64,000 nt of DNA from NCBI GenBank assembly GCA_903868795.1, contig CAIPWR010000108.1, positions 5,589-69,588 of the forward strand, given 5' to 3'. Position 1 is the first letter of the stretch. Every line of letters begins with the position of its first letter. Shown here piece after piece: positions 31,588 to 49,335 of the stretch. Position numbers and translations under genes: made by a program. This stretch comes from an uncultured Spartobacteria bacterium. Lineage in GTDB: Bacteria > Verrucomicrobiota > Verrucomicrobiia > Chthoniobacterales > UBA6821. Below the pieces are notes generated by a model. It had not been told where the DNA came from and searched no databases. It saw nothing but the letters and a program-made list of their open reading frames with translations.

Positions 31588-32403
31588 CTAGGCTGCCTTG
31601 CGTTCCTCCCCTTCGTTTCCCTGCTCGGTTGTGGGCACATCACTTTGAGAGGTCGGAGAGACGGGGGAAATCCCGGCGTCGGGATCCTGAGGCTTTTGAA
31701 GTGGTTGTTCAGGAGCGCTCTGGAGGGCTTCCGATTGGGATAAGGGCTTCTGGGTTCCCTTGCGGTTCGACTTTTTCTTTGTAGGGGCAGGGGTGCTGCC
31801 GCTGTCGACTGATGTAGGAGTTGCTTGGGCTTTTGTTTTTCCAGAGCTCTTCGCTTTGGAGCCGGCATCCTTGGAAACCTTCCTACCTTTTTTGGTAGGT
31901 TCCTCGACATGGGCGGCATGGTAGTCCAGTTCTGCGAGATAGACGGCATCCTCAGGAGTCGTTCCTGCGTAAAGAACCTGCATCAGTGCTGGGTAGTAGC
32001 GGTCAGCTGTTCCAAGGGCGGTTCCAAAAAGGCGACGGATCATCCCATCCTCCAGCTTGCCCTCGGGCATCACATGGGATGCATGGAAGCGAACTTCCCC
32101 ATCCTTCCAGTCCATCTCGAAGTTCCCGACAACGAGACCGTAATTGGCACGGGTGATGAACTCCGCGGCAATGGCACGAAAGGGTTCCTTCACCATCACG
32201 GGGTACTCGATGAAGATCTGAAGAACGTCGCCGGTCTTGTCGAAGTTGAAGCGACACTTCTGCACGGCATTGCCCGAGTTCATGGAGAACCAAATACGGC
32301 GCTCCTCGCGTTTGCAACTGTAGCGGATGCCAACTGCCTCAAAATGGTCGAGCAGGGCTTGGAAGGGATCGCCGTAGATGGGGTTATGGTTTTCGTCGTT
32401 CAT
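31588..32403 (-). CDS. YbjN-like (T3SS-chaperone-fold) protein with disordered Lys-rich/acidic tail (copy 1)
   Basis: FITRANYGLVVGNFEMDWKDGEVRFH and YAGTTPEDAVYLAELD. Paralogous to 41936..42682. Confidence 0.65.
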   Translation of the reverse strand: MNDENHNPIYGDPFQALLDHFEAVGIRYSCKREERRIWFSMNSGNAVQKCRFNFDKTGDVLQIFIEYPVMVKEPFRAIAAEFITRANYGLVVGNFEMDWKDGEVRFHASHVMPEGKLEDGMIRRLFGTALGTADRYYPALMQVLYAGTTPEDAVYLAELDYHAAHVEEPTKKGRKVSKDAGSKAKSSGKTKAQATPTSVDSGSTPAPTKKKSNRKGTQKPLSQSEALQSAPEQPLQKPQDPDAGISPVSPTSQSDVPTTEQGNEGEERKAA

Positions 32404-32525: not shown

Positions 32526-33380
32526 TCAATTCATCGCATATCCCGTCTCAGCGAGTTCCCCGAGGCACTTCGGGCAGAGGGCCATTCTCCATGATCGGCC
32601 ACACTCCTTCCGCCAGGTCCAATTGGGACTGTTCAGTGAGGCCCGCACCGCCCTGACCGGTCCATCGATTGGGCAGAGGAATGGGGCCTCTTTCGTGGCT
32701 TGGGTATCCGGGAAATCAAAGAAGCGTCGTGCATAGAGACCCTCAAGGAGGGGATCTCTCCCCTTGTGGAGTGGATGATGCAGGCTTGCCGCAAAATCCC
32801 AGAAGGGTTGGTCCCCCCGGCTTCCAGCATGGCGGATCTCGATCCCCCCGATGGAGTAACACCAGTGTGAGCGTCCTGGCTTGGAGAGCGCTTTACGAAA
32901 ACCGAAAAAGCACTCTTTGAAGAGCCGGCGCACATGGTTTGAGGAGAGCCGTTGCTTCACTGTGTATCCGTCTGGTATCGGGTTGCGCTCGCTTTCGGGC
33001 AAATAGATCCACTCCTCCGTCTTCCCTCGCGGGCCACACTGGAGGATGTAGTCGGCTTCATGGGAGCGCTCCAGAAGGGCAGCAAGGAAAAGAAAATCCT
33101 TGGTATGAGAAAGCTTGCTTCCCCATTGCGGTGCGAGTTGCGTTTCGGAAGGGATCTCACACGGAGTGTATTTTGCATGAAACTCCTCATCCATCGGTTC
33201 TAGAAGGGAAAGATCCGCCAATTCTTTTAGGCGTTGTTCCCTGCTTTCGTTAGCGCAACGGATGTTCTCCAACTTGTCCTCCACAATCCGTTCATCACGC
33301 AGTTTCAAAAAATGGGCGCGTTCCTCCTCATCGAGGTCATCCATTGCGAGGATCGCATCGTAGGCGTTTTCGTATTCCAT
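32526..33380 (-). CDS. hypothetical protein with C-terminal Cys pair
   Basis: 284-aa ORF lying 12 nt downstream of the AAA+ gene. The C-terminal CPKCLGE suggests a zinc-binding knuckle. Confidence 0.5.
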   Translation of the reverse strand: MEYENAYDAILAMDDLDEEERAHFLKLRDERIVEDKLENIRCANESREQRLKELADLSLLEPMDEEFHAKYTPCEIPSETQLAPQWGSKLSHTKDFLFLAALLERSHEADYILQCGPRGKTEEWIYLPESERNPIPDGYTVKQRLSSNHVRRLFKECFFGFRKALSKPGRSHWCYSIGGIEIRHAGSRGDQPFWDFAASLHHPLHKGRDPLLEGLYARRFFDFPDTQATKEAPFLCPIDGPVRAVRASLNSPNWTWRKECGRSWRMALCPKCLGELAETGYAMN

Positions 33381-33392
33381 GGTGATTGGTGT

Positions 33393-34502
33393 TCAGGCGG
33401 CAAAGCCGAGAATCTTGCTTTCGGAGGAGTTTGTTCCCTCCTGCTCATTGAAAATCTCCGCAAGGGAGTAATCCTCCGGCCCTCCAGGTAGAGAGAGTCC
33501 ATGGTGGGCTGCGAGGCGGCGGGCGTCGGTGCGGGAGAGGCGTCCGAAGTGACGGCGTGCCATGAGGCGTCCGGGTCGAAGCAGGGCGTCGTCGAGATCG
33601 GAAGCGCGACAATTCACCGTCGCGATGATCTGCAGGCGGAGGAAGTCGGCCAACATTCCGTCCGAGTAGTTTAGGACAACCTGCACAAGCGAGCGGTTAT
33701 CATTGGCACGGGCCATGAGTGCCTGCTCGGCATCCTCGATGATCAGCGCGAGTTTTTTGTCCTGATGGAGTTCCCTCTGACGGGCCCAGAATGAGATGAA
33801 GTCACTATCGACCAAGCAGCCGATCTCATGAGGAGCGATATAATAGAAGCAATGAGTCTTCGCGTGCTGGGACACCAGATGCCTTAGGAAGGTCGTCTTC
33901 CCGGTTCCAGGAGGTCCCTCCAGAATCGTCAAGCCAGACGGTTTGTCCTCAAAACGATGCATAAAATCCGCATGCCAGCCGTTGAAATCCTCGCCATAGA
34001 GGAGTGATAATTCCTGCGCATCGGGCACCTTGACACCCTCCAGTGGGACGGTCTCCGTCCCGATACATCCGCAGGAACGTTCAATCAGATAGTAGCATGG
34101 CTTGATAGGCTTAACCAAGGACCACGCCATTTTGTAAAGCCGCCGTGCGAGCTTAGCCGTCGACTTCCAGTCGCGACCATAGGCACGGATGGTCGAGCGA
34201 TAGCAGGTGGCGAACATGCCGCTTCGGGTTCGTAGGATAAGAGCTTGGGCGGTGAAAACTCCCTTGCAGTCCCACTCCGAATCGGTACGCAGGAGTTTCT
34301 TTTCAAGACGCTTGCCGAGGGCCTTGAGATCGTATTTGGGAGGAGTGACCTCGACGCGGTGCAGGGGGCCGCTGCCCAGCTCCTCCATGAGACAAAGCGG
34401 AAGTCCCCCACCCTCCTCCATATAAACGGGAACCATGGTGAGTGGAAAGGTTTGCTGCGGAGCGGGCATCAGTGGCTTCTGGTTGAAATCGAAGGTTTCC
34501 AT
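33393..34502 (-). CDS. BCS1-like classic-clade AAA+ ATPase (paralog 2)
   Basis: Walker A GPPGTGKTTF, Walker B LIIEDAEQAL, and ATVNCRASDLDDALLRPGRL. The C-terminus is KILGFAA. Confidence 0.85.
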   Translation of the reverse strand: METFDFNQKPLMPAPQQTFPLTMVPVYMEEGGGLPLCLMEELGSGPLHRVEVTPPKYDLKALGKRLEKKLLRTDSEWDCKGVFTAQALILRTRSGMFATCYRSTIRAYGRDWKSTAKLARRLYKMAWSLVKPIKPCYYLIERSCGCIGTETVPLEGVKVPDAQELSLLYGEDFNGWHADFMHRFEDKPSGLTILEGPPGTGKTTFLRHLVSQHAKTHCFYYIAPHEIGCLVDSDFISFWARQRELHQDKKLALIIEDAEQALMARANDNRSLVQVVLNYSDGMLADFLRLQIIATVNCRASDLDDALLRPGRLMARRHFGRLSRTDARRLAAHHGLSLPGGPEDYSLAEIFNEQEGTNSSESKILGFAA

Positions 34503-34554
34503 GAGTTGTGTGTAAGAGTTGGTTTGATATGCCGGACAGGGTCAGCGTGCAGGC

Positions 34555-35052
34555 TTATCGATGGACGGTGCCGCTATAGGAGCGTCCGCCAGCTGTGGTC
34601 CCCGAAACCGAGTAATTCCCACCGCCGGTGTAGGTGACATTCCCTGATCCGCCCCGATAGGTGCTGTAGCTGGCGCTGCCATTACCATTGTAGGTTCCAC
34701 TGCCGTAGCGGCCGTAGTAGGTCCCGTTCCCGCCACAGTAACCATACGGGCGATAGTAGTTCCCATAGCAACCTCCATAACCGGTATATCCACGATAGCA
34801 CCCGCCCCACCAACCGAAGAATCCGTAGGGTGCATAGCCTCCGTAATATCCGTAGGGATTGTAATAGGTCGCGTAAGGATTTCCGTAATATCCGGGATAA
34901 TAGGTAGTATAAGTAGGCGCAACCCATGGAGTGGTCACCGTGGTTCCATTTGGGTAAGTTATTGTGGCACAGGAGCAAAGTGCTGATGAAATCAGTGTAA
35001 AAAGAATAATGTTATATAAATTAAATGATTTCATTTCTACTATATTAGACAT
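34555..35052 (-). CDS. secreted/lipoprotein-like Gly/Tyr/Cys-rich protein (GY-1)
   Basis: N-terminal signal FTLISSALCSC, followed by an extreme G/Y composition that includes GNYYRPYGYCGG. Confidence 0.65.
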   Translation of the reverse strand: MSNIVEMKSFNLYNIILFTLISSALCSCATITYPNGTTVTTPWVAPTYTTYYPGYYGNPYATYYNPYGYYGGYAPYGFFGWWGGCYRGYTGYGGCYGNYYRPYGYCGGNGTYYGRYGSGTYNGNGSASYSTYRGGSGNVTYTGGGNYSVSGTTAGGRSYSGTVHR

Positions 35053-35138
35053 AGCGATTATTTCTGTTAATTACGAGCTGAAACGCGGAAAGCGTATGAG
35101 ATCGGGATGACATTTCCTGTCGGTTCCAGATGAGGGGA

Positions 35139-36218
35139 TCATGCGGCGAATCCGATGCGGCAGGGTGTAGGTTCCACATCACGGATGGGCTCCGCCGAAA
35201 AGATCTCCGCAAGGGAATAATCAGTGCGCAAAGGGAGCTCCTTCCCGAGCGAACGTGCGAGGCGGTGGCCATCCTGATGGGAAAGGCGACCGAAGGTGCG
35301 TTGGGCGGTCAGGCGACCGGGGCGGAGAAGTGCCTGATCAATATCGGTCGTGGCACAGTTCATGGTCGCGACGATGTGCAACTGGAGGAAATCCGCCAGA
35401 AGGCCATCGGTGACATTCAGGATCGCGGAGACTTCGGAACGATTGTCCATGGCGCGCGGGGCAAGGGCCGCCTCAGCATCCTCCAGAACCATGACGAGCT
35501 TTTTGCCTTCGGCCTCTTGCTTTTGGCCGTTCCAGAAGTCGATGAAATCTGGATTGGAGACGATCCCGACCGTCGAAGGTGGAACGAAGTAGAAGCGGTG
35601 CGAGGTGCGAAGCTCCACCATCAAATGGCGAAGATAGGAGGTCTTTCCGCAGCCTGGAGTCCCGTCAAGGATCGTCAGCCCGTGGGGGCGCTCGGAAAGG
35701 GCCTTGATAAAACCGGTATGCCAATCGAGGAATTCGGAGCCGTAATTGAGCGCCAGCTTCTCCTCGGCGAGACCGAACTCGGCCTTCATCGTGACTGCAA
35801 AGGTGTTGAGATCCCCGCGGCTCACGCGAAGAAGGTGATAGGTGCCGAACTCCGGCGCCTCCTCCTCGTTTGCCACAAGGTAACGTTGCAGGAGACGACC
35901 CAGCAGATGGCATGCACGAAGAGTTGGTCCGTAGACCTTGAGACACCCTTCGTCAAAATGAATGAAGAGCCCGCGATCCGAGCCGAAGATCACATGGAAC
36001 CAATGCTTCTCCTCTCCCATCCCCCCGCTGTCCGAGCGGAGGATGCGTTTGGAGAGATTTTTGGCCATCGAATTGATGTTCCAGCGTGAATCGCGGCAAC
36101 GTAGGCGGAGTCGGTGAAAGTCACGTGTTCCGTAATGTGAGAGAACCGGTTGAGGTGGGTTTTCCCCCGATTCTTCGAAGGCGTAAGAGGTCGAGACGAT
36201 CTGGTTGATGGTATTCAT
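35139..36218 (-). CDS. BCS1-like classic-clade AAA+ ATPase (paralog 1)
   Basis: GTPGCGKTSY, MVLEDAEAAL and ATMNCATTDIDQALLRPGRL. The C-terminus is CRIGFAA. Confidence 0.85.
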   Translation of the reverse strand: MNTINQIVSTSYAFEESGENPPQPVLSHYGTRDFHRLRLRCRDSRWNINSMAKNLSKRILRSDSGGMGEEKHWFHVIFGSDRGLFIHFDEGCLKVYGPTLRACHLLGRLLQRYLVANEEEAPEFGTYHLLRVSRGDLNTFAVTMKAEFGLAEEKLALNYGSEFLDWHTGFIKALSERPHGLTILDGTPGCGKTSYLRHLMVELRTSHRFYFVPPSTVGIVSNPDFIDFWNGQKQEAEGKKLVMVLEDAEAALAPRAMDNRSEVSAILNVTDGLLADFLQLHIVATMNCATTDIDQALLRPGRLTAQRTFGRLSHQDGHRLARSLGKELPLRTDYSLAEIFSAEPIRDVEPTPCRIGFAA

Positions 36219-36274
36219 GGAATGAGTCGAAGGGTCTGGATTGTCAAAAAACTGGTGGATTCCGGTGCGGGGGA

Positions 36275-36673
36275 TCAGTTGATTCCTGCAGCGCGGAGAG
36301 CATTGATGGTTAGGTCACGGGCACCCTCTTCTTCAGGTACAAACTGCTCCACCACCATGCGGATCACCTGCGCCGGGGTGAGGGGACGGAAAACCCGCAG
36401 ACTGCGGCGATGCTCGCGCAGTGCGGACTCCGATTCCTCGTTGGTCGCCGTGGTCCAGATGCTTCCATCCCAAATCTGGATGATGGTTCGCGCAATGTAG
36501 AATCCATGCTCATCCGAGTGGTGCAGCATGCTGTCCACATCGAGGAAGTTTCCCTCCTCATCCTTGTCTAGGAAGAGTGTGGTGATGTAAGTGTCGTTGG
36601 AGGGGTCGTACGTGGGCTTGGATAAGAGCATATGGGTGATTGGCGTGGGGAGTGAATATGAGTTGATTGACAC
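36275..36673 (-). CDS. hypothetical protein (first gene of the minus-strand arm)
   Basis: 132-aa ORF with a GTG start at 36673. No motif recognised. Confidence 0.45.
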   Translation of the reverse strand: MSINSYSLPTPITHMLLSKPTYDPSNDTYITTLFLDKDEEGNFLDVDSMLHHSDEHGFYIARTIIQIWDGSIWTTATNEESESALREHRRSLRVFRPLTPAQVIRMVVEQFVPEEEGARDLTINALRAAGIN

Positions 36674-36694
36674 ATAAACCCTCCTTAATCACCC

Positions 36695-36709
36695 CGACAC
36701 GGAGTGTCG
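36695..36709. promoter_or_regulatory. palindrome CGACAC-gga-GTGTCG (motif site a)
   Basis: Perfect 6-3-6 inverted repeat in the divergent intergenic region. Confidence 0.4.
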
Positions 36710-36736
36710 TTGAAACATCTGCCGTAAATAACAGAC

Positions 36737-36751
36737 CGACACTCCCTGTCG
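36737..36751. promoter_or_regulatory. palindrome CGACA-ctccc-TGTCG (motif site b)
   Basis: 5-5-5 inverted repeat with the same CGACAC..GTCG core. Confidence 0.4.
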
Positions 36752-36962
36752 TTCGCAGGCTTCTTAAGTATCGGCTATGACATCGAACTGTATTACATCT
36801 GATACTGTCGTGATTTTCTCAATTCCAACGTACTCAAAAAGCCGGAAGCCAGGTAGCGGAGGAAAACGTAGGGAGTCATTTTTTCAAACCCTCTTGACCG
36901 GATCCCATTTTATGCAATCTTCCAAAACGATGAATGAACTGTTGACACGCCGAAGGCGAAGA

Positions 36963-36980
36963 CCCGACACAACCGTCGGG
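36963..36980. promoter_or_regulatory. palindrome CCCGAC-acaacc-GTCGGG (motif site c)
   Basis: Ends 14 nt upstream of the ATG at 36995. The 21-mer cccgacacaaccgtcgggacc is identical to the one at 45507. Confidence 0.45.
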
Positions 36981-36994
36981 ACCCTGCGCTTTAG

Positions 36995-37429
36995 ATGTCC
37001 TCTAATTCATTCCCATGTTTACACAGCGATCTAGTTGATCTTGACGAAGCGGCTTCTGGCCGTGTCGCCCACCTTTCGTTGCCGAATTGTCGGTACGAGA
37101 TTCCTCCCTCCCGCAAGAAACGGAACAAGGAGTGGCACCGCTTGCTTAGCTTACGGCGTGCCATGCGCCTTCAAGACCACCTTAGCAAAAAATCGTACTC
37201 CTTTAGCAAACAATGCAACGAGCGCGGGGCATTGGAGTCCGAGATCGACCATATCGAAAAGTTTCTTGAGGCCCACTTCGCCTGGGATCTGCTCGGTGGA
37301 CGTTTCTTTGCCTGCAAGGAACGTGATCTTTCCTTTGAAAAAGTAGCGATCCTGAAGCGTCTGCATTTGCAGGAAATGCGTGAAACAACCCTTGAGCTTT
37401 TTTCTTCGGGCTACCGGAATTTTTGCTGA
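36995..37429 (+). CDS. hypothetical protein (first gene of the plus-strand arm)
   Basis: 144-aa ATG ORF lying 33 nt upstream of AAA+ paralog 3. Confidence 0.45.
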   Translation: MSSNSFPCLHSDLVDLDEAASGRVAHLSLPNCRYEIPPSRKKRNKEWHRLLSLRRAMRLQDHLSKKSYSFSKQCNERGALESEIDHIEKFLEAHFAWDLLGGRFFACKERDLSFEKVAILKRLHLQEMRETTLELFSSGYRNFC

Positions 37430-37462
37430 GCTCCTGTCTTTGGAAAACCTCAATCTCAACCC

Positions 37463-38644
37463 ATGAAAACGCAGAAACCTTCAAACCCTCTTCATCCACT
37501 CACCACGCTCGATCTTAACGCTAACAAGAAAAGTGTTTCTAGAAGCCGTAGCAAGGTCATGATGAACATCGACCTTGCGGATATCGACTCTTGGGGGGCA
37601 GATGCCTGCACTCCTCCTCTTCCTGTCCTTGCCTTTTATGGTGCTGATCCACTTCATCGGTTTGCTTTGCCGCGTGGACGTTTTGATATTGCCCGCCTGA
37701 CGAAACAATTTGCCTCACGAATCGTACGCTCTGACAGTCGTCCCGGAGGAAAATCCGATTCTGAGGATCAGGATGGTTGGAGGAGCGTCCTCTTCCATTT
37801 CAAGGGATTTGGCGCATGGCTGCACTATGAGCACGGCACGATCAGCACCTATGCGGCGACCCGTCGAAAGGCGATGCTCTTGGCTCTGAAGATGGAACGT
37901 TACCATCTCAAGGATAAAGAGACTGGCGGAAGCTTTGAATTGATCTCCCTGGAGAATGGATCGATCGATACCGAGACAGTCACCCTAGGGATGGAAACAA
38001 TCCTTGAAGATCGGATTCTCTCCCTGCATTACGGCGAGGACTTTCCTAAATGGAGTCGCGATTACGAAAGCATAATCACTTCGAAAAAGAGCGGTTTGAG
38101 TATCCTGGATGGGCCTCCCGGCACGGGTAAGAGTTCTTTCATCCGCCACCTGATGGGGAAGTTAAAGAGCTCGCACAGATTCTTTTTTGTTCCCCCGAGC
38201 GTGATCGATGTCGTGAGCAACTCCTCTTTCGTCAGCTTCTGGAGTCGTCAACAGATGAGTCACAAGGGACGCCAGTTCGTTCTTGTGCTGGAGGACTCCG
38301 AAGCTGCATTGATGAAGAGGGCTGCGGACAACCACTCGCTTGTGAGCAGTCTGCTCTCGGTCACCGATGGCCTTCTGGGGGACTTCATGAAGATCCAGGT
38401 AATCTGCACGATCAATTGCAAATACCAGGACATCGATCCTGCTCTTCGTCGTGCGGGACGCTTGGTTGCTCACCGCCACTTCCCTCGACTGAGCTACAGC
38501 AAGGCCTGCTCTCTCGCTGATAAGATCGGTCGTCCCGTTCCGAGCAGGGAGGAATTCTTCGATGGGGACTTCTCCCTCGCCGAGATCTACAACGCCGACG
38601 CCGCTCCCCAGCAGGAGTCGAAAATCATCGGCTTCGCCGCATAA
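37463..38644 (+). CDS. BCS1-like classic-clade AAA+ ATPase (paralog 3)
   Basis: GPPGTGKSSF, LVLEDSEAAL and CTINCKYQDIDPALRRAGRL. The C-terminus is KIIGFAA. Confidence 0.85.
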   Translation: MKTQKPSNPLHPLTTLDLNANKKSVSRSRSKVMMNIDLADIDSWGADACTPPLPVLAFYGADPLHRFALPRGRFDIARLTKQFASRIVRSDSRPGGKSDSEDQDGWRSVLFHFKGFGAWLHYEHGTISTYAATRRKAMLLALKMERYHLKDKETGGSFELISLENGSIDTETVTLGMETILEDRILSLHYGEDFPKWSRDYESIITSKKSGLSILDGPPGTGKSSFIRHLMGKLKSSHRFFFVPPSVIDVVSNSSFVSFWSRQQMSHKGRQFVLVLEDSEAALMKRAADNHSLVSSLLSVTDGLLGDFMKIQVICTINCKYQDIDPALRRAGRLVAHRHFPRLSYSKACSLADKIGRPVPSREEFFDGDFSLAEIYNADAAPQQESKIIGFAA

Positions 38645-38698: not shown

Positions 38699-39154
38699 AT
38701 GAAAAGAATTCTAATCCTGATCACGATCGTCCTCATTACTGCCACTGCTTCTCCCTCTCTTCATGCCAATCCTGGTTGGAATGGCGGATGGAACGGGGGA
38801 GGGGGCTATTCTCATAGCGGAGGCGGTGGACAATATCACCATGGAGGTGGAGTTCAGCATTATCAGGGCGGCGCCAGGTGCTACCCCGGGTGGAATGGAG
38901 GATACTACCGCCCCACTGCCTGCAGTTACGGTGGTGGCTATGGCCATGGTGGAGGGTACGGCGGAGGTTGTGGTTCTGCAGGAGGATGGTATGGCACCGG
39001 AATTCCGAATGGCCTGGGGTGGGTGCTTTGCGGACTCGGACTCGGAGGTCTCTTGGGAGTGGCTACCGCGCCGATGATCGTTGCTCCCCAGCCCGTCTAT
39101 GCTGCTCCTGCGCCCGGCATCTATTCGGCTGCCTACGGCACGCCGGTTTACTAA
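38699..39154 (+). CDS. secreted Gly/Tyr/Cys-rich protein with glycine-zipper hydrophobic tail (GY-2)
   Basis: Signal peptide ending SLHA|NP, a GGYYRPTACSYGG core, and a GLGWVLCGLGLGGLLGVA segment. Confidence 0.65.
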   Translation: MKRILILITIVLITATASPSLHANPGWNGGWNGGGGYSHSGGGGQYHHGGGVQHYQGGARCYPGWNGGYYRPTACSYGGGYGHGGGYGGGCGSAGGWYGTGIPNGLGWVLCGLGLGGLLGVATAPMIVAPQPVYAAPAPGIYSAAYGTPVY

Positions 39155-39181: not shown

Positions 39182-40078
39182 ATGAGTTCATTACCTCCAC
39201 CCATGCAGACAGAGTTGTCATTCCGTGGCGAAGAAGATGATTTCCTTCGCGAGTGGCTTCGTGAACGTCGCAAGACGCGTCTGCAGCGTCTAGGTGAATG
39301 GCTGGAGATGTCGGTCCTTCTTCCAGTTATTCAGGGTCTGCTAGCAGTAATCAGGGTAGCCGAGCCACTCCGAGTTGTCCCGGCACCCGTATGGACGATT
39401 GGCTCCATGCTGATCTCGATCGCAGTCTACTCTTCCAGGATGGGGTGGAAACTGGCACTTGGCTTCATCACCCTCTTGATGATCCACGAGAGCGGGCATC
39501 TGCTTGCGGCACGCTATTACGGGGCGCGCATGAGCGTTCCGATCTTCATCCCCTACATCGGGGCGATTATTGACATGAAGGAGCCGATGCGGAATGCCTG
39601 GGAGGAGGCCGTCTTCGGCATCTCGGGGCCGCTTTTGGGGACCCTTGGAGCCTGCCTCTGCTGGATCACGGCAGGCATCACCGGCAGCTTCTACTTCGCC
39701 GAGCTGGCACTCTTTGGTTTTTTCCTCAATCTCTTCAACCTCATTCCACTTGGCTTTCTTGACGGAGGACACGTCGCAGTCGTGCTCACTCGTTGGCTCT
39801 GGATTCCCGGCTACCTCATGATGGGCGCCTTCGCATGGTATGTGCATTCGCCTGTCGTGATTATCTCGCTTGTCGTCATGCTTCCAATGGTCCTCTCCCT
39901 CTTCCGGAAGAAACCACATAAAGACAATCTCTATGACCGCGTGCGGCTCGGGAAGCGTTTCGCCATGGGTGCCATCTACCTGGCCCTTGTCTCTTTCCTC
40001 GCCTGCTCCATGTCCTGGATTTTCATCAAGGACATCTACCCCGGCCTCAAGCAAGGCAAGAGCCTTATCAAGCTTTAA
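39182..40078 (+). CDS. M50 (site-2-protease-type) membrane metalloprotease (copy 1)
   Basis: HESGHLL (HExxH) and NLFNLIPLGFLDGGH (the NxxPxxxLDG motif). Polytopic. Confidence 0.75.
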   Translation: MSSLPPPMQTELSFRGEEDDFLREWLRERRKTRLQRLGEWLEMSVLLPVIQGLLAVIRVAEPLRVVPAPVWTIGSMLISIAVYSSRMGWKLALGFITLLMIHESGHLLAARYYGARMSVPIFIPYIGAIIDMKEPMRNAWEEAVFGISGPLLGTLGACLCWITAGITGSFYFAELALFGFFLNLFNLIPLGFLDGGHVAVVLTRWLWIPGYLMMGAFAWYVHSPVVIISLVVMLPMVLSLFRKKPHKDNLYDRVRLGKRFAMGAIYLALVSFLACSMSWIFIKDIYPGLKQGKSLIKL

Positions 40079-41935: not shown

Positions 41936-42682
41936 ATGTCCGACTCCAATACCCCGTTTGAACCCGCAACCGGCCCCGACTTCGGAGGGCCCTTCAAGAC
42001 CGTGTGCGATCACTTCGAGGAACACATGAAATCCGTGAACATCGATTGGGAGAAAAAAACCCTCCGTTTCCAAGTTTATGGCGACCACGCGAACATGGAT
42101 GTCCGGATTCGTGTCTGCGAGGAGGATCATGTCCTCCAGTTCTTCATCACGCTACCCTTCCGGGTGGCGAACGAGAAGATGCGACCCATCGTGGCCGATT
42201 TTGTGGCCAGGGCAAATTGGGGTCTCGTCGTCGGATCGCTGGAATTTGACATGAGGGACGGGGAACTCGTCTACCACATGACGCAGTTGCTTGAGAACCA
42301 CACGATCGGTGATCAACTCATAGGACGTCTGTTTCGCACAGGCATGTCGACGTTCGACAGGTACATCCCCGGCATCTTTCAGATCATTTACGGAGGGAAT
42401 ACCCCGGAAGACGCCGTCTACCTTTGCGAATTGGACATGCATTCCTCCCAAGATGCCGACACCCAGTCCTCATCCGTCGCGCCGAAGAAGAAAAAGCCGG
42501 CACCGCGTCGAAAGAAATCCACCAGCAAGGACGCCGGTAAGGAAAGCGGACAGGAGAGTCATTCCTCTGATTCCGGAAACCATGCAGCTCTCGAATCCCC
42601 AGCACCTCAGGATCCCATGGGTAACAATCAGGCAGAGGATCGTGGTACATTTTCTGCAGAGGCCGAGGAGGATGAATTTTAG
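41936..42682 (+). CDS. YbjN-like protein with Lys-rich/acidic tail (copy 2)
   Basis: FVARANWGLVVGSLEFDMRDGELVYH and YGGNTPEDAVYLCELD. Paralog of 31588..32403. Confidence 0.65.
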   Translation: MSDSNTPFEPATGPDFGGPFKTVCDHFEEHMKSVNIDWEKKTLRFQVYGDHANMDVRIRVCEEDHVLQFFITLPFRVANEKMRPIVADFVARANWGLVVGSLEFDMRDGELVYHMTQLLENHTIGDQLIGRLFRTGMSTFDRYIPGIFQIIYGGNTPEDAVYLCELDMHSSQDADTQSSSVAPKKKKPAPRRKKSTSKDAGKESGQESHSSDSGNHAALESPAPQDPMGNNQAEDRGTFSAEAEEDEF

Positions 42683-45540: not shown

Positions 45541-46254
45541 GTGAACAACACAATCAATGACACAGTAACCCCCGTTTCTAACACGCTCCGCAGTCTGGCG
45601 GGGCGGATCGCGCGGGTCCTCCCGTATTTCAAATCCCTACGCAGCACGGAGTGCAGGGCGAGGCTGCTCTTCAACCCTCTCGAGAATTCCACGAGGTTCT
45701 ACCTCTCGGTGCGTGATGCCATGGAAAGGCTCGCGAAGGCTTCTCAGCCCTCGCTTTTGGAGATCGAGATCATCGATTCCTGCGGCGTCGAACCGGAGCT
45801 CATCCTTGCCTTTCACGATCTCCTCTCGAACCGCCCTTCCCGCGTGCGTCTGCGCGTGGTGACCAGGTTCAACCTGATTGACGGATTGATTCTTTTGCCG
45901 ATCTTGGCAGACGAGGTGCACATCGGTGCTCACTGCTGGTGGGAGTGTGTTGATCCCTTAAAAATCGAAGAGGAAAAAGACTGCATTGATGGAGATGAGT
46001 GGAAGAAACCGGTGCGCCGCGGCGCAGGGTCTACCGACGAGCCGGCTCCTCTGGCAGACCATCGCACGCTTCGTGCACTCCTCGGACAGTATCTGCCCTA
46101 TGCGGAATATTCCGGCCGGCGCGTACCGCTAGCAGCAACGTTGAGGGATTTCGGTCTCATTCCAGGAGATCAAGCCGATTTTCTCACCCGCTGCCTCACT
46201 ATGCCGATGCCCACGACACCTGCTGTCTCTGCACCGTGCAACACTCTGAGGTAA
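45541..46254 (+). CDS. hypothetical protein, possibly a degenerate ClpP/crotonase-fold protein
   Basis: By eye, EIEIIDSCGVEPELILAFHDLL...RVVTRFNLIDGLILLPILAD...HIGAHCWW aligns with the ClpP INSPGG...GxAASMG...MIHQP region, but has no Ser/His at the catalytic positions. Confidence 0.35.
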   Translation: MNNTINDTVTPVSNTLRSLAGRIARVLPYFKSLRSTECRARLLFNPLENSTRFYLSVRDAMERLAKASQPSLLEIEIIDSCGVEPELILAFHDLLSNRPSRVRLRVVTRFNLIDGLILLPILADEVHIGAHCWWECVDPLKIEEEKDCIDGDEWKKPVRRGAGSTDEPAPLADHRTLRALLGQYLPYAEYSGRRVPLAATLRDFGLIPGDQADFLTRCLTMPMPTTPAVSAPCNTLR

Positions 46255-46258
46255 TGCC

Positions 46259-46555
46259 ATGAAGAAACTCATCCTTTGCTCGTTGTTCTCCGTCGGCATC
46301 GCCCATGCCCAGCCCTGCGGTTGGGGTGGCTATGCGCGCCCTTACTCTGGGTGGATCTCCACCACTGGAGCCTGTAACGGTGGCGGCTGTTATGCCCCCG
46401 TGCTCTACGGGAACCCCTATGCCTGCGGTTACTATGCGGCTCCCACCGTTCCGGTCACCATCGGCCCACCCACGGGCATCGGCATCTCGTTCTTCGGCCT
46501 GAACATCCTGTCCATCAACCCGACGCTTCCCCAGGCAACCTTGATTACCCGCTGA
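46259..46555 (+). CDS. secreted Gly/Tyr/Cys-rich protein (GY-3)
   Basis: Signal peptide ending IAHA|QP, then CGWGGYARPYSGW, NGGGCYAP and ACGYYAAP. Confidence 0.6.
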   Translation: MKKLILCSLFSVGIAHAQPCGWGGYARPYSGWISTTGACNGGGCYAPVLYGNPYACGYYAAPTVPVTIGPPTGIGISFFGLNILSINPTLPQATLITR

Positions 46556-46595
46556 ATCCACCATCTCCGCATCCAACCCAACCAAACTTATTCAT

Positions 46596-47603
46596 ATGAC
46601 AAAAGAACTCCCTCAGCAAACCGCGCCCGAATGGCTAGAGAACATGACCCAGGAGAACATCCGCGAAAGGTTTTGCCTCGAGGACATCCTCAAGGGCTCG
46701 CTGTTCTATCCCGGATGTGAACGCGATGCCTCGGCATTCGACATTTTCTCCGGGAACTATCACAGCTTTGTATTCGCGGATCCGACAGTCCGCGAAAGCG
46801 ACCTCACTCTCTGGCTCAACGGAGCCGAAATTCCCCACATCCTTCCACAGCACTACAGGCCCGTCGCTTCGACCCGTCTGAGGGATAGCGACCTTTCTAC
46901 CGTGTTCTGCTGGGATGACAAGGACCGTGAAATCTCCCGCTACGGCAGGGTGGGGAGCGAGTTTGTCCAGCGCTGGCGTCATCTTGCAGGTTCGCCGATC
47001 TTTGCTCGGGACGTCTTTTCAACCGGTGAATCCATCACGAAGATTCTCGATGTAGAGATCGAGCCGTACCTGCGCTTGATGGAGAAATCACGTGATGAGT
47101 TTGCGTCATCAATCACGTTCATCAATCGGCGGTTCCGCTATCTGCAGGAGAAAGCGCGTGCCCTTCAGGCCCAATTCGATCCGTTTTGGAATCCCGAGCC
47201 CCCATATGCCCATTGGTTTGTCATGGAGAAGTGTGATACGGCAGCGGAGGAACTTCCCGCCCGGGTCTCACTGCTCTTCCTCGGCGAGGAAGCCTCACTG
47301 GCCTACCGCGCTCTTTACACGGATCGCGGCATTTCCCCCGCGATGATTCTGATCAAGAACTGGAAGAATGGTCATGGAGACAACCGTCCCTGGAGCCGTG
47401 GGGATGTGGACTCTTCTCCCTTCTACAAGGCTGTGACCGAGTGCAGAGAAGCCCCGATGCCGGACATCGCGTTCAAGATTTACCAAGAGGAACCGGACTG
47501 GGAGGGATGGGAGGAGTTTGCGAAGATCCCTCTGGACGACAACTACCGGGGCGAAGCCCCCCTGAGGCTTCTTCGCCATGCCGGAGGAACTCTGGCAAAA
47601 TGA
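46596..47603 (+). CDS. hypothetical protein
   Basis: 335-aa ORF. Its stop overlaps the next start (ATGA at 47600). Confidence 0.5.
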   Translation: MTKELPQQTAPEWLENMTQENIRERFCLEDILKGSLFYPGCERDASAFDIFSGNYHSFVFADPTVRESDLTLWLNGAEIPHILPQHYRPVASTRLRDSDLSTVFCWDDKDREISRYGRVGSEFVQRWRHLAGSPIFARDVFSTGESITKILDVEIEPYLRLMEKSRDEFASSITFINRRFRYLQEKARALQAQFDPFWNPEPPYAHWFVMEKCDTAAEELPARVSLLFLGEEASLAYRALYTDRGISPAMILIKNWKNGHGDNRPWSRGDVDSSPFYKAVTECREAPMPDIAFKIYQEEPDWEGWEEFAKIPLDDNYRGEAPLRLLRHAGGTLAK

Positions 47604-48472
47604 ATAATCGTTTCGCCATCGCGGGTGACGAGCCCGTGTCCTTTGCCCCGCCTGCGCCTCCTGAGATTTGCTGTGAGAGGGATTGGAGCGGTGCGCCGCC
47701 GATCCGTCTCCAACCCTCCGCGCACTACTCATCCGCGCAGACGGATCGAATCATCAACTACTGGCGACCGCGGATTGCGAATCTTGTGGAGAGCGCCATC
47801 GGAATGGTCGGTGATTTTCGTCAATATCAAGAAGGTGGAAAACTCGGTATCGACTGGCAGACCAATGGGAATCCTTATCCCTGTCTGCCGTTTCTGCGTG
47901 TGGTTGGCCCCCCCGAATCGGGAAGAGACATGAGGCACTTCACCGACGAGTCCTGCCACGTCCTGCTTCAGACCTCTACGAAAGAGGAGGCTCAAGAAGC
48001 CTATTGGTTTAAGGGAAGGATTCCCGACGCTCGTGATATCATGGAATGGATAGAACGATGGTCCGTCTGGCTTCCAAACGAGAGCAGTCAGTTTGAATTC
48101 TGGAGCGTTTTCTTGCCAAGCGGGACGTTCGAAAGGTTCTGCCATTATGTGCATTCTCTCGTCCACGACTACTATCTGGAAATCCTTGAGCGCCACACGC
48201 TTTGGGAAGAAAGGATGGAGTGCGAGGGCTGGCCTCCCCCGGCAGAGGATTCACTGCCGACCGCCAAGAATCTCCCCACGTCTATCCGCTACTGGCACCC
48301 AAGACTCCTCCTTGACGAGGAGGAATTCCGCCTCACGGTGGAGAATGCAGCCGAAGTCTTCGCCTTTACTATGGACATGCTGCAACGCTACAGGCATTCG
48401 CTCGACCAGGAGGCCAAAGATGCGCTGGAAATGGCCGCTTACGAGGCGTATCTGCTTGGAAATCCCAGATGA
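47600..48472 (+). CDS. hypothetical protein
   Basis: Start placed at MNNRFAIAG (47600). Its stop overlaps the M50 copy 2 start (ATGA at 48469). Confidence 0.5.
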   Translation: MNNRFAIAGDEPVSFAPPAPPEICCERDWSGAPPIRLQPSAHYSSAQTDRIINYWRPRIANLVESAIGMVGDFRQYQEGGKLGIDWQTNGNPYPCLPFLRVVGPPESGRDMRHFTDESCHVLLQTSTKEEAQEAYWFKGRIPDARDIMEWIERWSVWLPNESSQFEFWSVFLPSGTFERFCHYVHSLVHDYYLEILERHTLWEERMECEGWPPPAEDSLPTAKNLPTSIRYWHPRLLLDEEEFRLTVENAAEVFAFTMDMLQRYRHSLDQEAKDALEMAAYEAYLLGNPR

Positions 48473-49335
48473 ACACTGCGACCACTTCCTTTGCTTTTCG
48501 TAGGCGCCGGCGAACGCAATCCTACATGCACCCTCCTCTCAGATTTGGCGGGATTGCAGGGATTATCATGACTCTTTCCCGCGTCCCAGGACCTTTCTGG
48601 TCGGCGGCCAGCCTTCTTATGTCCCTCGCTTATTATGGTTGCCGGCTGGGGTGGGGCCTTGCCGCTGGATTTTTGGTTCTCCTTTCCGTTCACGAAACAG
48701 GGCATCTGTTGGCGGCTCGCCGTTATCGGCTTAGGACCTCCTGGCCGCTGTTTGTCCCGGGTCTGGGCGCGCTGATCGACATTCAGGAGGCGCCGGGAGA
48801 CCGTTGGCAGAACGCCGTCATCGGTGTTTCGGGACCGGTCTTCGGGACCATCGGAACATTGGTCTGCTTGTTCCTGGCTCATGTCTCGGGTTGCCGTCTC
48901 CTGTATGAAGCCGCTTTTGCGGGGGCCGTCATGAATACCTTTAATCTGATCCCTGTGGGGCCAATGGACGGTGGCCGTGTGGCCGAGCTTTTCTCGCGAT
49001 GGCTCTGGATTCCCGGATACCTGATGCTTGCGGTGATCGTCTGGTATTTACGGGCTCCGGCGGCGGTCCTTCTGCTCCTGCTTATGTTGCCGATCATCGT
49101 CACGCTCTTCCGCAGGAAGAAGTCCTTGAAAAGCGACTCTCCCGACTTGCGGGAACAGTCGCGGGTCTCGCTCGGCAAGCGCCTCGCCATGGGCTTCCTC
49201 TACATCGGGCTCGTCATCATTCTGGCCTCATCGATGTGCTGGATCTTTGTCAAAGACATCGCCCCGAGGCTCCATGCTGGGAAAAGCCTTACTCATTCAA
49301 TTCCCGGCAACAAAACCGCCGGAGTGGACCACTGA
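48469..49335 (+). CDS. M50 (site-2-protease-type) membrane metalloprotease (copy 2)
   Basis: HETGHLL and NTFNLIPVGPMDGGR. The C-terminal KRLAMGFLYIGLV..WIFVKDIAP parallels copy 1. Confidence 0.75.
   Translation: MNTATTSFAFRRRRRTQSYMHPPLRFGGIAGIIMTLSRVPGPFWSAASLLMSLAYYGCRLGWGLAAGFLVLLSVHETGHLLAARRYRLRTSWPLFVPGLGALIDIQEAPGDRWQNAVIGVSGPVFGTIGTLVCLFLAHVSGCRLLYEAAFAGAVMNTFNLIPVGPMDGGRVAELFSRWLWIPGYLMLAVIVWYLRAPAAVLLLLLMLPIIVTLFRRKKSLKSDSPDLREQSRVSLGKRLAMGFLYIGLVIILASSMCWIFVKDIAPRLHAGKSLTHSIPGNKTAGVDH

What the first reader, a model, noticed from the sequence alone, without database searches (positions are those of the whole stretch)
33393..38644. All three AAA+ paralogs end in (I/L)GFAA, an IGF-type tripeptide at the extreme C-terminus
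The C-termini read ...SKILGFAA, ...CRIGFAA and ...SKIIGFAA, although the preceding ~20 residues have diverged. Two docking precedents are established: ClpX/ClpA bind ClpP through IGF/IGL loop tripeptides, and proteasomal ATPases bind through C-terminal HbYX tails. A conserved hydrophobic-Gly-Phe motif placed at the C-terminus combines both ideas and suggests docking onto a partner ring. Candidate partners in this window are the M50 proteases and the ClpP-fold-like ORF at 45541. This is inference only.
Basis: partly seen in the sequence, partly recalled or inferred. Interest (0 to 1): 0.7.

Follow-up and report, generated by a model that had tools for sequence, protein, structure and literature searches.

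The report
Conserved IGF-type tail on BCS1-like ATPases
Three neighbouring ATPase genes end in a short flexible tail carrying an Ile/Leu/Val-Gly-Phe plug that is kept in hundreds of relatives from two bacterial phyla and giant phages and also sits on an unrelated ATPase family; this suggests an undescribed docking handle, possibly for the ClpP protease, but no partner has been shown.

Summary
Three intact AAA genes (33393-34502 -, 35139-36218 -, 37463-38644 +) are 37-39% identical and end in ILGFAA, RIGFAA and IIGFAA after a diverged linker.

"GFAA" itself is lineage-specific. The conserved unit is [R/K-rich]-(I/V/L/M)-G-F, usually followed by two small residues and sometimes by up to about 30. 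It sits 13-16 residues after the last lid helix. It is kept in more than 90% of about 300 non-redundant relatives from Verrucomicrobiota, Bacteroidota and jumbo phages.

The proteins are soluble BCS1/YjoB-like classical AAA ATPases, with an "ED" Walker B motif, a Bcs1-like N-domain and a two-helix lid. AlphaFold leaves the tail unstructured.

An unrelated SpoVK/Vps4-type AAA family on mobile elements carries the same ...RRRIGF tail, so the tail looks like a portable docking peptide. It fits the ClpP-binding (L/I/V)-G-(F/L) consensus and does not fit HbYX.

No ClpP gene is linked to these genes, and the family lacks an aromatic pore-1 loop.

Verdict: a conserved and apparently undescribed motif, with the docking idea partly supported and the partner unknown. 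ClpP is the leading candidate, at roughly 30%.

The parts
33393..34502 (-). AAA1, 369 aa. A soluble BCS1/YjoB-like classical AAA ATPase: N-domain about residues 36-160, AAA core about 162-318, two-helix lid 324-356, tail 352-369.
   Evidence: ORF. PF00004 at 6e-08. AlphaFold model with pLDDT 90.5. Foldseek top hits are Bcs1 and YjoB over about 350 columns. Walker A is GPPGTGKT and Walker B is IIEDAE.
33396..33449 (-). AAA1 tail: linker NEQEGTNSSESKI (residues 352-364), L365-G366-F367, A368-A369.
   Evidence: Sequence. Mean pLDDT of the last two 10-residue blocks is 69 and 62, and DSSP assigns no structure after residue 356. G366 is invariant and F367 at least 90% conserved in 109 sequences.
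35139..36218 (-). AAA2, 359 aa, a paralog 39% identical to AAA1. Walker A is GTPGCGKT and Walker B is VLEDAE.
35142..35198 (-). AAA2 tail: linker SAEPIRDVEPTPCR, I355-G356-F357, A-A.
37463..38644 (+). AAA3, 393 aa, a paralog 37% identical to AAA1. Walker A is GPPGTGKS and Walker B is VLEDSE.
38591..38641 (+). AAA3 tail: linker NADAAPQQESKI, I389-G390-F391, A-A.
36275..36673 (-). 132-aa protein of unknown function, encoded 57 bp upstream of AAA2 on the same strand. It is a lineage-specific conserved operon partner.
   Evidence: Homologs lie 57-228 bp upstream of the ATPase in 7 loci: window, L001, L002, L006, L007, L011 and L013. It has no Pfam or PHROG hit.
32526..33380 (-). 284-aa protein of unknown function, immediately downstream of AAA1.
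   Evidence: A homolog is also present downstream of the ATPase in L011 and L013. No Pfam hit.
39182..40078 (+). M50 metallopeptidase (HESGH motif), the last gene of the AAA3 operon. It is a lineage-specific neighbour and not a family-wide partner.
   Evidence: PF02163 at 4e-14. An M50 gene lies near the ATPase in only 7 of 86 loci.
34555..35052 (-). Gly/Tyr-rich predicted lipoprotein between AAA2 and AAA1. This is a variable insert.
   Evidence: Sequence. The gene is absent between the orthologous ATPase genes of L001 and L002. No Pfam hit.
38699..39154 (+). Gly-rich secreted protein with a glycine-zipper-like C-terminal hydrophobic segment, between AAA3 and M50.
   Evidence: Sequence. Only a weak PXPV hit.

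Best explanation
The three genes encode soluble BCS1/YjoB-like AAA ring ATPases. Their last roughly 18 residues form a flexible tether that presents a short docking peptide: basic residues, then (I/V/L/M)-G-F, then small residues. The conserved unit is this peptide, not the free C-terminus or the 'AA'.

In the assembled ring, six or seven such tails would hang from the lid side of the AAA tier. Each would insert its Ile/Val/Leu and Phe side chains into a hydrophobic pocket of a separate partner, giving avid multivalent docking.

The partner must be conserved across Verrucomicrobiota, Bacteroidota and the proteobacterial hosts of jumbo phages, and it is usually not encoded next to the ATPase. 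The only receptor known for exactly this tripeptide presented by ring ATPases is the H-pocket of ClpP, which makes ClpP the leading candidate. The M50 peptidases and ORF 45541 are not good candidates.

What is shown: conservation, family assignment, the predicted disorder of the tail, the narrow linker length, and portability to a second AAA family. What is inferred: that the tail binds another protein, and that this protein is ClpP.
For: (1) Phi-G-F is kept in 233 of 256 relatives, in all 97 full-length copies from GTDB genomes of two phyla, in 40 of 42 viral-contig copies, and in Pseudomonas jumbo phage MIJ3 (...KKQKIGFGN) and a Persicobacter megaplasmid (...KKRRIGF).
(2) The linker has no sequence consensus but its length is 13-16 residues in 86% of 306 non-redundant tails. 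Positions -2 to -4 are enriched in R/K/P, and +1 and +2 are A/G.
(3) Between 0 and about 30 residues follow GF, so a free carboxylate is not needed. That is IGF-like behaviour, not HbYX-like.
(4) The tail is unstructured in a pLDDT 90.5 model.
(5) An unrelated classical AAA family carries ...SRRRIGF followed by 0-6 freely varying residues in 110 of 120 close homologs. That family has a DE Walker B, an SKYLGD pore loop and a full lid, and BLASTP against AAA1 matches only the Walker A motif. Its lid geometry differs and it has no Bcs1-like N-domain.
(6) The motif matches the published ClpP-docking consensus (L/I/V)-G-(F/L) (PMC8745299). Many tails read IGFGA, the same five residues as the E. coli ClpX loop GSGIGFGATVK, which I quote from my own memory of that sequence.
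(7) Gene neighbours differ by lineage: RtcB plus a YkuK-like RNase H protein plus SPFH in one, a DEDDh exonuclease in another, M50 in a third, or none. This fits a partner encoded elsewhere in the genome.
Against: No binding has been shown or modelled, because the tools offered no multimer prediction. No clpP gene lies near the ATPase in 90 cellular loci. The single ClpP-like ORF near a phage copy carries a signal peptide and lies on the opposite strand.

The family lacks the aromatic pore-1 loop. It has VDSD, SNPD or SNSS where Cdc48/Afg2 have KYLGE, and the loop is shorter. Its closest structural relatives, Bcs1 and YjoB, work as a folded-protein translocase and a chaperone without any peptidase. 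Threading substrates into ClpP is therefore not expected for this family.

A three-residue motif can bind other pockets. Universal conservation across hosts is explained equally well by a site on the ATPase itself.
Confidence: 0.45

Rival explanations
1. The tail acts within the ring. Phi-G-F packs in trans into a hydrophobic groove of the neighbouring protomer. It would then either substitute for the missing lid helices and stabilise or regulate the oligomer, or plug the ring's own pore as an autoinhibitor.
For: The lid has only two helices, against five in YjoB. The narrow linker length of 13-16 residues suggests a fixed target distance. Conservation in phages of very different hosts needs no host factor if the receptor is the ATPase itself. 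C-terminal elements of other classical AAA proteins such as Vps4, katanin, spastin and Msp1 contribute to ring assembly (established knowledge).
Against: The same basic-IGF tail sits on an unrelated AAA family with a complete lid, a different linker (about 10 residues after a Lys-rich helix) and no Bcs1-like N-domain. AlphaFold does not place the tail on the protomer, although a monomer model cannot show contacts in trans.
Confidence: 0.25
2. One reading: the tail docks onto a partner encoded in this window, either the M50 metallopeptidases (39182-40078, 48469-49335) or the 'ClpP-fold-like' ORF at 45541-46254.
For: M50 is the last gene of the AAA3 operon. M50 genes recur near the ATPases in L001, L002, L006, L007, L013 and L043.
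Against: The tail is family-wide, but M50 is a neighbour in only 7 of 86 loci from one lineage. ORF 45541 has no Pfam, PDB or ClpP similarity and no homologs, and its model has pLDDT 41.6. M50 enzymes are intramembrane monomers, not known ring receptors (established knowledge).
Confidence: 0.05
3. The basic-hydrophobic tail is a peripheral membrane anchor. Six or seven copies of R/K-rich residues followed by Ile and Phe would hold the soluble BCS1-like ring at the anionic membrane, replacing the N-terminal transmembrane helix of mitochondrial Bcs1.
For: Basic residues precede the hydrophobic pair. Neighbours are often membrane proteins: M50, TM2, glycine-zipper and SPFH proteins. Jumbo-phage BCS1 orthologs have been proposed to act next to the membrane (PMC7824862).
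Against: Gly is invariant and Phe is almost never replaced by Leu, Trp, Tyr or Met. That points to a shaped protein pocket rather than generic lipid insertion. Two hydrophobic side chains make a very short anchor.
Confidence: 0.07
4. The terminal '...FAA-COOH' is an ssrA-like degradation tag that keeps these ATPases at a low level through ClpXP or a tail-specific protease.
For: The commonest ending in Verrucomicrobiota is G-F-A-A, with A at +1 in 126 and at +2 in 121 of 306 tails. ClpX recognises C-terminal LAA-COOH (established knowledge).
Against: The residues after GF are the least conserved part. They read GG, GH, AV or RRxxxxxN, or are absent, and in the second family they vary freely. 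Selection acts on Phi-G-F and the preceding basic residues, not on the terminus.
Confidence: 0.05

Closest known systems
Mitochondrial Bcs1 (AAA translocase of the folded Rieske protein) and the BCS1 orthologs noted in jumbo phages
   Same: These are the best structural matches over the whole length, covering N-domain plus AAA over about 350 aligned columns. Bcs1 is the only PDB family whose sequence match runs on into the lid. The 'ED' Walker B is shared, and there is no aromatic pore-1 loop. Phage homologs are annotated 'AAA+ ATPase and BCS1 domain protein', and BCS1 orthologs in jumbo phages are discussed in PMC7824862.
   Different: There is no N-terminal transmembrane helix, so the proteins are soluble. 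The oligomeric state is unknown. The Phi-G-F tail is not mentioned in either paper whose text I searched. I did not check whether eukaryotic Bcs1 has such a tail.
Bacillus subtilis YjoB (PDB 7w42), a soluble hexameric BCS1-like chaperone
   Same: Both are soluble, with a Bcs1-like N-domain, a classical AAA module and an ED Walker B. YjoB is a Foldseek hit at 3e-10 with TM 0.47 (PMC9565160).
   Different: The YjoB lid has five helices, whereas here it has two followed by the tail. That paper describes YjoB as restricted to Bacillales. No docking tail is reported for it.
IGF / IGL / VGF loops of ClpX, ClpA and ClpC that dock into ClpP H-pockets
   Same: The tripeptide consensus (L/I/V)-G-(F/L) is the same. 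The motif is carried on a flexible segment of about 15-20 residues on a ring ATPase, is flanked by basic and small residues, and does not need a free terminus.
   Different: In Clp ATPases the motif sits on an internal loop of an HCLR-clade AAA+ module that has GYVG pore loops. Here it sits on a C-terminal tail of classical-clade modules, and the BCS1-like family has no aromatic pore loop. There is no clpP linkage and binding is untested.
HbYX / GQYL C-terminal tails of PAN, Rpt, Mpa and archaeal Cdc48, and the C-terminal tail of HslU
   Same: In both cases a C-terminal tail of a ring ATPase is used to dock onto and open a peptidase ring (established knowledge). The position at the end of a classical AAA lid is also shared.
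   Different: There is no penultimate Tyr. The motif is not fixed at the terminus, since 0 to about 30 residues follow it. These phyla are not known for 20S proteasomes (own knowledge).
SpoVK/Ycf46/Vps4-type AAA of Prosthecobacter mobile elements (L030 12116-13183, P0258-P0377)
   Same: It carries the same tail...K/R-rich-RRRIGF followed by 0-6 variable residues, and occurs in some of the same loci as the BCS1-like genes (L030, L032).
   Different: Beyond the P-loop it is an unrelated AAA family. It has a DE Walker B, a canonical SKYLGD pore loop, a full lid and a disordered N-terminus.

Membership tests
BCS1/YjoB-type classical AAA ATPases | Walker A motif GxxGxGK[ST] and a classical AAA module (PF00004) | tested here: met
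   The three proteins have GPPGTGKT, GTPGCGKT and GPPGTGKS. All three score above the PF00004 gathering threshold.
BCS1/YjoB-type classical AAA ATPases | Walker B reads hhhhED instead of hhhhDE | tested here: met
   The three proteins have LIIEDAE, MVLEDAE and LVLEDSE. E256 is invariant and D257 at least 90% conserved in 109 sequences. The feature is described for Bcs1 and YjoB in PMC9565160.
BCS1/YjoB-type classical AAA ATPases | Second region of homology with arginine fingers | tested here: met
   The D-x-A-L-L-R-P-G-R-L stretch is present, with R309 and R312 invariant in 109 sequences. It aligns to the Afg2/Cdc48 stretch 'DPALRRPGR'.
BCS1/YjoB-type classical AAA ATPases | Bcs1-like N-terminal (middle) domain preceding the AAA module | tested here: met
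   The Foldseek top 12 hits are Bcs1 and YjoB chains aligned over 322-383 columns of the 369-residue model (E 9e-13 to 3e-10). TM-scores are only 0.34-0.47, probably because domain orientations differ. Pfam BCS1_N is not hit.
BCS1/YjoB-type classical AAA ATPases | N-terminal transmembrane anchor (mitochondrial Bcs1 proper) | tested here: not met
   No hydrophobic helix is present. Residues 1-30 have pLDDT 51-64 and lack secondary structure apart from a three-residue turn at 21-23. The proteins resemble YjoB and are not Bcs1 orthologs in the strict sense.
BCS1/YjoB-type classical AAA ATPases | Heptameric (Bcs1) or hexameric (YjoB) ring with an internal chamber | not testable with these tools
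   Only monomer prediction was available.
ClpP-docking Clp/Hsp100 ATPases (ClpX, ClpA, ClpC) | (L/I/V)-G-(F/L) tripeptide on a flexible surface segment | tested here: met
   In 306 non-redundant tails the residue before G-F is I in 177, V in 62, L in 36 and M in 17. One phage clade has F-G-L. The tail is unstructured in the model. The consensus is taken from PMC8745299.
ClpP-docking Clp/Hsp100 ATPases (ClpX, ClpA, ClpC) | Motif located on an internal loop of an HCLR-clade AAA+ module | tested here: not met
   The motif lies 0 to about 30 residues from the C-terminus, after the lid. The module belongs to the classical clade: PF00004, with Afg2, Cdc48 and Bcs1 as best PDB hits.
ClpP-docking Clp/Hsp100 ATPases (ClpX, ClpA, ClpC) | Aromatic-hydrophobic pore-1 loop for threading substrates | tested here: not met
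   VDSD, SNPD or SNSS align to KYLGE of Afg2/Cdc48, and the loop is shorter. The second tailed family does have SKYLGD.
ClpP-docking Clp/Hsp100 ATPases (ClpX, ClpA, ClpC) | Genetic linkage to, or physical binding of, ClpP | tested here: not met
   Linkage: there is no ClpP homolog within 6-10 kb in the 90 cellular loci or anywhere in the window. Two identical viral loci carry a secreted ClpP/NfeD-like ORF. Binding could not be tested.
HbYX-tailed proteasomal ATPases (PAN, Rpt, Mpa, Cdc48) | Hydrophobic-Tyr-X as the last three residues | tested here: not met
   The last three residues here are F-A-A, and across the family the ending varies in sequence and length.
HbYX-tailed proteasomal ATPases (PAN, Rpt, Mpa, Cdc48) | A 20S proteasome partner in the same genome | not tested
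   Whole genomes could not be queried.

The most novel reading that the evidence does not exclude
Basic-(I/V/L)-G-F C-terminal tails would be a third, so far undescribed way of coupling ring ATPases to a self-compartmentalised peptidase. In this reading, classical-clade AAA rings plug their tails into ClpP H-pockets. These rings include a soluble BCS1-like family, possibly heptameric and therefore matched to ClpP's seven-fold symmetry, and a SpoVK-like unfoldase family. They are encoded in defence islands, mobile elements and jumbo phages. Docking would let them commandeer or deregulate the host's ClpP, for targeted degradation or, in the manner of ADEP antibiotics, for gate opening during conflict between phage and host.
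Probability: 0.28. Interest if true: 0.85.

Novelty: new variant of a known kind. Interest (0 to 1): 0.62.

Why it matters
ClpP is thought to be served only by Clp/Hsp100 ATPases through internal IGF-type loops, and C-terminal docking tails are known for proteasome and HslV partners. Here an IGF-type peptide sits on the C-terminal tail of two classical-clade AAA families, and it is conserved from Verrucomicrobiota and Bacteroidota to Pseudomonas jumbo phages. That gives a concrete and cheap hypothesis to test: does a tail peptide or the ring bind ClpP, and does ADEP compete?

If the answer is yes, the set of ClpP partners would extend to ATPases carried by mobile elements and phages. It would also give prokaryotic BCS1-like ATPases, so far known only from comparative genomics, a biochemical handle.

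If the answer is no, the tail still marks a strictly conserved interaction site in an uncharacterised family that recurs in defence islands and RtcB RNA-repair operons.

Tried and rejected
- The search for related loci with the 109-sequence alignment failed for lack of a conserved stretch. It was repeated with a 16-sequence alignment.
- Megablast of the region against plasmids gave nothing.
- Rfam and tRNA scans of the window gave nothing. There is therefore no tRNA-like or Y-RNA partner here, despite the RNA-repair neighbourhoods seen elsewhere.
- PADLOC gave only weak P-loop-level hits to mad8, MkoA and TRIP13, so the cluster is not a catalogued defence system. NCBIfam gave only sub-threshold PAN, Cdc48 and FtsH hits.
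- Pfam on the roughly 700-aa relatives that lack the tail showed no informative extra domain, so no Rosetta-stone fusion was found. The exception is one M20/M28 peptidase-AAA fusion, P0200.
- ORF 45541 as a ClpP-like protein was rejected as unsupported.
- Burroughs & Aravind 2016, on RNA-repair systems, could not be read. I therefore could not check whether it describes the RtcB/SPFH/YkuK-linked ATPase.
- Literature searches for a C-terminal IGF-type ClpP-docking tail found nothing.
- Multimer modelling of the ring with ClpP or with itself was not possible with the tools.

Full report
**1. The observation**

The window holds three intact ORFs at the stated coordinates. AAA1 is 33393-34502(-), 369 aa, ending ...SESKILGFAA. 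AAA2 is 35139-36218(-), 359 aa, ending ...PTPCRIGFAA. AAA3 is 37463-38644(+), 393 aa, ending ...QQESKIIGFAA. All three pass the Pfam AAA (PF00004) threshold.

They are 37-39% identical to each other. After the conserved lid helix 'SLAEI[FY]' the next 12-14 residues share a single invariant column, and then G-F-A-A is identical in all three.

**2. What the proteins are**

The best PDB sequence hits are the D1 modules of Afg2 and Cdc48, followed by mitochondrial BCS1. BCS1 is the only hit whose match continues into the lid.

An AlphaFold2 model of AAA1 was built on a 109-sequence alignment. It is confident, with mean pLDDT 90.5 and pTM 0.83. It shows four parts:
- an alpha/beta N-domain at about residues 36-160;
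- the AAA core;
- a minimal lid of two helices (324-333 and 347-356);
- a tail with no secondary structure, where the last two 10-residue blocks have mean pLDDT 69 and 62.

Foldseek against the PDB puts Bcs1 chains first, aligned over about 320-380 columns and so including the N-domain, with B. subtilis YjoB next. The Walker B motif reads hhhhED (IIEDAE, VLEDAE, VLEDSE). The YjoB paper gives this peculiarity as shared by Bcs1 and YjoB (PMC9565160).

There is no N-terminal transmembrane helix. Where Afg2 and Cdc48 have the pore-1 loop KYLGE, these proteins have a shorter VDSD, SNPD or SNSS.

They are therefore soluble BCS1/YjoB-like classical AAA ATPases. They are not Clp/Hsp100 proteins and not proteasomal ATPases. 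No curated family names them: NCBIfam and PADLOC give only weak generic hits, and the matching PHROG has unknown function.

**3. How far the tail is conserved**

A search of 5.8 billion proteins returned 148 relatives, of which the best 120 were listed. Nearly all carry (I/V/L/M)-G-F near the end, but only 44 end in GFAA. An exhaustive HMMER search of 1.84 billion cluster representatives gave 154 proteins below 1e-30. Over both sets, 233 of 256 have GF in the last 25 residues. The exceptions are truncated or frameshifted sequences, or belong to a distinct group of about 700 aa.

A scan of GTDB species genomes found at least 453 loci in Verrucomicrobiota and Bacteroidota. All 97 full-length copies in the fetched loci keep the motif. 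The Chitinophagaceae version is E-[VI]-IGF-RR followed by 5-7 more residues.

Homologs also exist in jumbo phages of Pseudomonas, Xanthomonas, Vibrio and Acinetobacter. The phage MIJ3 protein, annotated 'AAA+ ATPase and BCS1 domain protein', ends ...QLKKQKIGFGN. A Persicobacter megaplasmid copy ends ...KKRRIGF. Of 42 copies on IMG/VR viral contigs, 40 keep the motif, and one clade has F-G-L instead.

The anatomy over 306 non-redundant tails is as follows:
- The linker from the lid helix to the Gly is 13-16 residues in 86% of cases and has no sequence consensus.
- Position -1 is I, V, L or M.
- Positions -2 to -4 are enriched in R, K and P.
- Positions +1 and +2 are A or G.
- The protein ends at +2 in 55% of cases, but 0 to about 30 residues can follow.

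In the family alignment the Gly is invariant and the Phe is at least 90% conserved. The conserved unit is therefore a tethered basic-Phi-G-F peptide, and 'GFAA-COOH' is its local dialect.

**4. A second family with the same tail**

I scanned every other ORF in the fetched loci for a terminal Phi-G-F. This turned up a 355-aa protein in Prosthecobacter loci (L030 12116-13183, and L032) that ends ...KSKSRRRIGFLAS.

It is a different AAA family. It has a DE Walker B, a canonical SKYLGD pore loop, a complete lid and a disordered N-terminus. BLASTP against AAA1 matches only the Walker A motif.

Of its 120 closest relatives, 110 keep IGF, while the 0-6 residues after it vary freely: QPS, CER, CA, LPG, GVG and others. 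The gene sits on mobile-element-like DNA alongside DUF6908, an amidoligase and a DNA ligase.

Two unrelated ring ATPases with different lids thus carry the same peptide. That is the strongest evidence here that the tail is a portable docking module for a shared receptor, rather than a structural part of one fold.

**5. Gene context**

In the window the genes form two divergent operons:
- Minus strand: 132-aa protein, AAA2, Gly/Tyr-rich lipoprotein, AAA1, 284-aa protein, YbjN-like protein.
- Plus strand: AAA3, Gly-rich secreted protein, M50 peptidase.

I clustered the neighbours across 86 loci. This showed lineage-specific partners only:
- The 132-aa protein, M50, YbjN and a HAD protein occur in this lineage.
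- An unknown 335-aa protein upstream and a DEDDh exonuclease downstream occur in Verrucomicrobiales.
- A YkuK-like RNase H protein, then the ATPase, then RtcB RNA ligase, plus an SPFH protein, occur in Chitinophagaceae.
- WYL regulators occur in 11 loci.

In several genomes the gene stands alone among housekeeping genes.

No ClpP homolog lies near the ATPase in any cellular locus. One phage contig, seen as two identical loci, has a ClpP/NfeD-like ORF nearby, but that ORF carries a signal peptide and lies on the other strand.

**6.

M50 is a neighbour in 7 of 86 loci, so it cannot explain a family-wide motif.

It has no homolog other than itself. Its single-sequence model has pLDDT 41.6, too low for a fold comparison. 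'ClpP-fold-like' is not supported.

**7. Mechanism**

Five features define the motif:
- strict conservation of a Gly and a Phe;
- a preceding beta-branched or aliphatic residue;
- a flexible linker of constrained length;
- no requirement for the terminus;
- occurrence on two kinds of ring ATPase.

Together these point to a short linear motif that inserts into a shaped hydrophobic pocket, presented six- or seven-fold for avidity.

The only known receptor for (L/I/V)-G-(F/L) presented by ring ATPases is the ClpP H-pocket (PMC8745299). Many tails read IGFGA, as in the E. coli ClpX loop GSGIGFGATVK (quoted from my memory of that sequence). ClpP is also conserved across all the host phyla involved, and its absence from the neighbourhoods is what one expects of a housekeeping hub. 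ClpP is therefore the leading candidate partner.

There are real objections. No linkage or binding evidence exists. The BCS1-like family lacks a threading pore loop. Its structural relatives, a folded-protein translocase and a chaperone, work without a peptidase.

I put 'docking peptide for a separate partner' at about 0.45-0.6, and ClpP specifically at about 0.3. The main rival is docking in trans onto the neighbouring protomer, perhaps compensating for the truncated lid, at about 0.25. A membrane anchor and a degron are less likely, because selection acts on G-F and not on the hydrophobicity pattern or the terminal residues.

**8. Comparison with what is known**

BCS1 orthologs in jumbo phages have been noted before and were proposed to translocate folded proteins next to the membrane (PMC7824862). 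YjoB is a characterised soluble relative.

My term searches within those two papers turned up no passage describing a C-terminal Phi-G-F tail. Three full-text literature searches found no report of a C-terminal IGF-type ClpP-docking tail.

The feature works like an IGF loop in sequence and like an HbYX or HslU tail in position. It fails the membership tests of both families: it is not internal, its module is not HCLR-clade, and it has no Tyr and no fixed terminus.

I class it as a new variant of a known kind, namely a docking tail on a ring ATPase, carried by a largely uncharacterised prokaryotic and phage BCS1-like family.

**9. Limits**

No multimer modelling and no whole-genome queries were possible. 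Two structure libraries were unavailable. One key comparative-genomics paper on RtcB/SPFH systems could not be read. I did not check whether eukaryotic Bcs1 or YjoB carries a related tail.

Noticed in passing
L030:12116-13183(-); L032:13426-14253(-); L093:4003-4965; L095:8001-8948: An unrelated SpoVK/Vps4-type AAA family (DE Walker B, SKYLGD pore loop) on mobile-element-like DNA ends in ...K-rich-RRRIGF followed by 0-6 freely varying residues. Of 120 close homologs, 110 keep IGF.
   Followed up: partly
L091:2308-3735 (Pseudomonas phage vB_PaeM_MIJ3); L096-L137 (IMG/VR): Jumbo-phage BCS1-like ATPases keep the same tail, for example ...KKQKIGFGN. One viral clade has F-G-L instead of Phi-G-F.
   Followed up: partly
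L063-L090 (Chitinophagaceae), e.g. L075:7058-7543, L077:8957-10405, L087:6165-7316: A conserved operon runs YkuK-like RNase H (PF04308), then the tailed ATPase, then RtcB RNA ligase, often with an SPFH/Band-7 protein and a radical-SAM protein nearby. This links the family to RNA repair.
   Followed up: partly
L014, L019, L022, L023, L029-L033, L037: In Verrucomicrobiales the ATPase is flanked by an unknown protein of about 335 aa directly upstream. In many of these loci a DEDDh (RNase_T) exonuclease lies directly downstream, often with a GmrSD-like nuclease nearby.
   Followed up: no
window 34555-35052(-), 38699-39154(+), 46259-46555(+): Three small secreted or lipoprotein-like Gly/Tyr-rich proteins lie next to the ATPase and M50 genes. 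One has a glycine-zipper-like hydrophobic segment. The copy between AAA2 and AAA1 is absent in the closely related contigs L001 and L002.
   Followed up: no
window 39182-40078(+) and 48469-49335(+): Two small M50 metallopeptidases with no PDZ hit each close a run of same-strand genes that includes a small Gly-rich secreted protein. The second run (45541-48472) otherwise consists of ORFs with no Pfam hit.
   Followed up: partly
window 31588-32403(-) and 41936-42682(+): Two YbjN-like (PF10722) proteins have long Lys/Ser/Pro-rich disordered C-terminal extensions. YbjN-like genes also sit next to the ATPase in L013, L041 and L057.
   Followed up: no
[not shown]
   Followed up: partly
window 45541-46254(+): This ORF has no homolog other than identical copies among 5.8 billion proteins and no family hit. 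A single-sequence AlphaFold model has pLDDT 41.6.
   Followed up: yes
L131:7249-7923(-) (same in L132): On one viral contig a ClpP/NfeD-like serine peptidase ORF with an N-terminal signal sequence lies 670 bp from the ATPase homolog, on the opposite strand. Its E-value against E. coli ClpP is 2e-08.
   Followed up: partly
P0241, P0246, P0249-P0251, P0256 (about 700 aa); P0200 (651 aa): Long relatives with an N-terminal extension of 350-500 aa of unknown nature lack the Phi-G-F tail and end ...NKNTLIHD.... P0200 fuses an M20/M28 peptidase domain to a tailed ATPase.
   Followed up: partly
L006:5565-12435 (same metagenome as L002): A second locus carries M50, a 120-aa protein, two tailed ATPases and a 97-aa protein. 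A TIR-NACHT-TPR protein follows directly, with DndB and FRG genes nearby.
   Followed up: no
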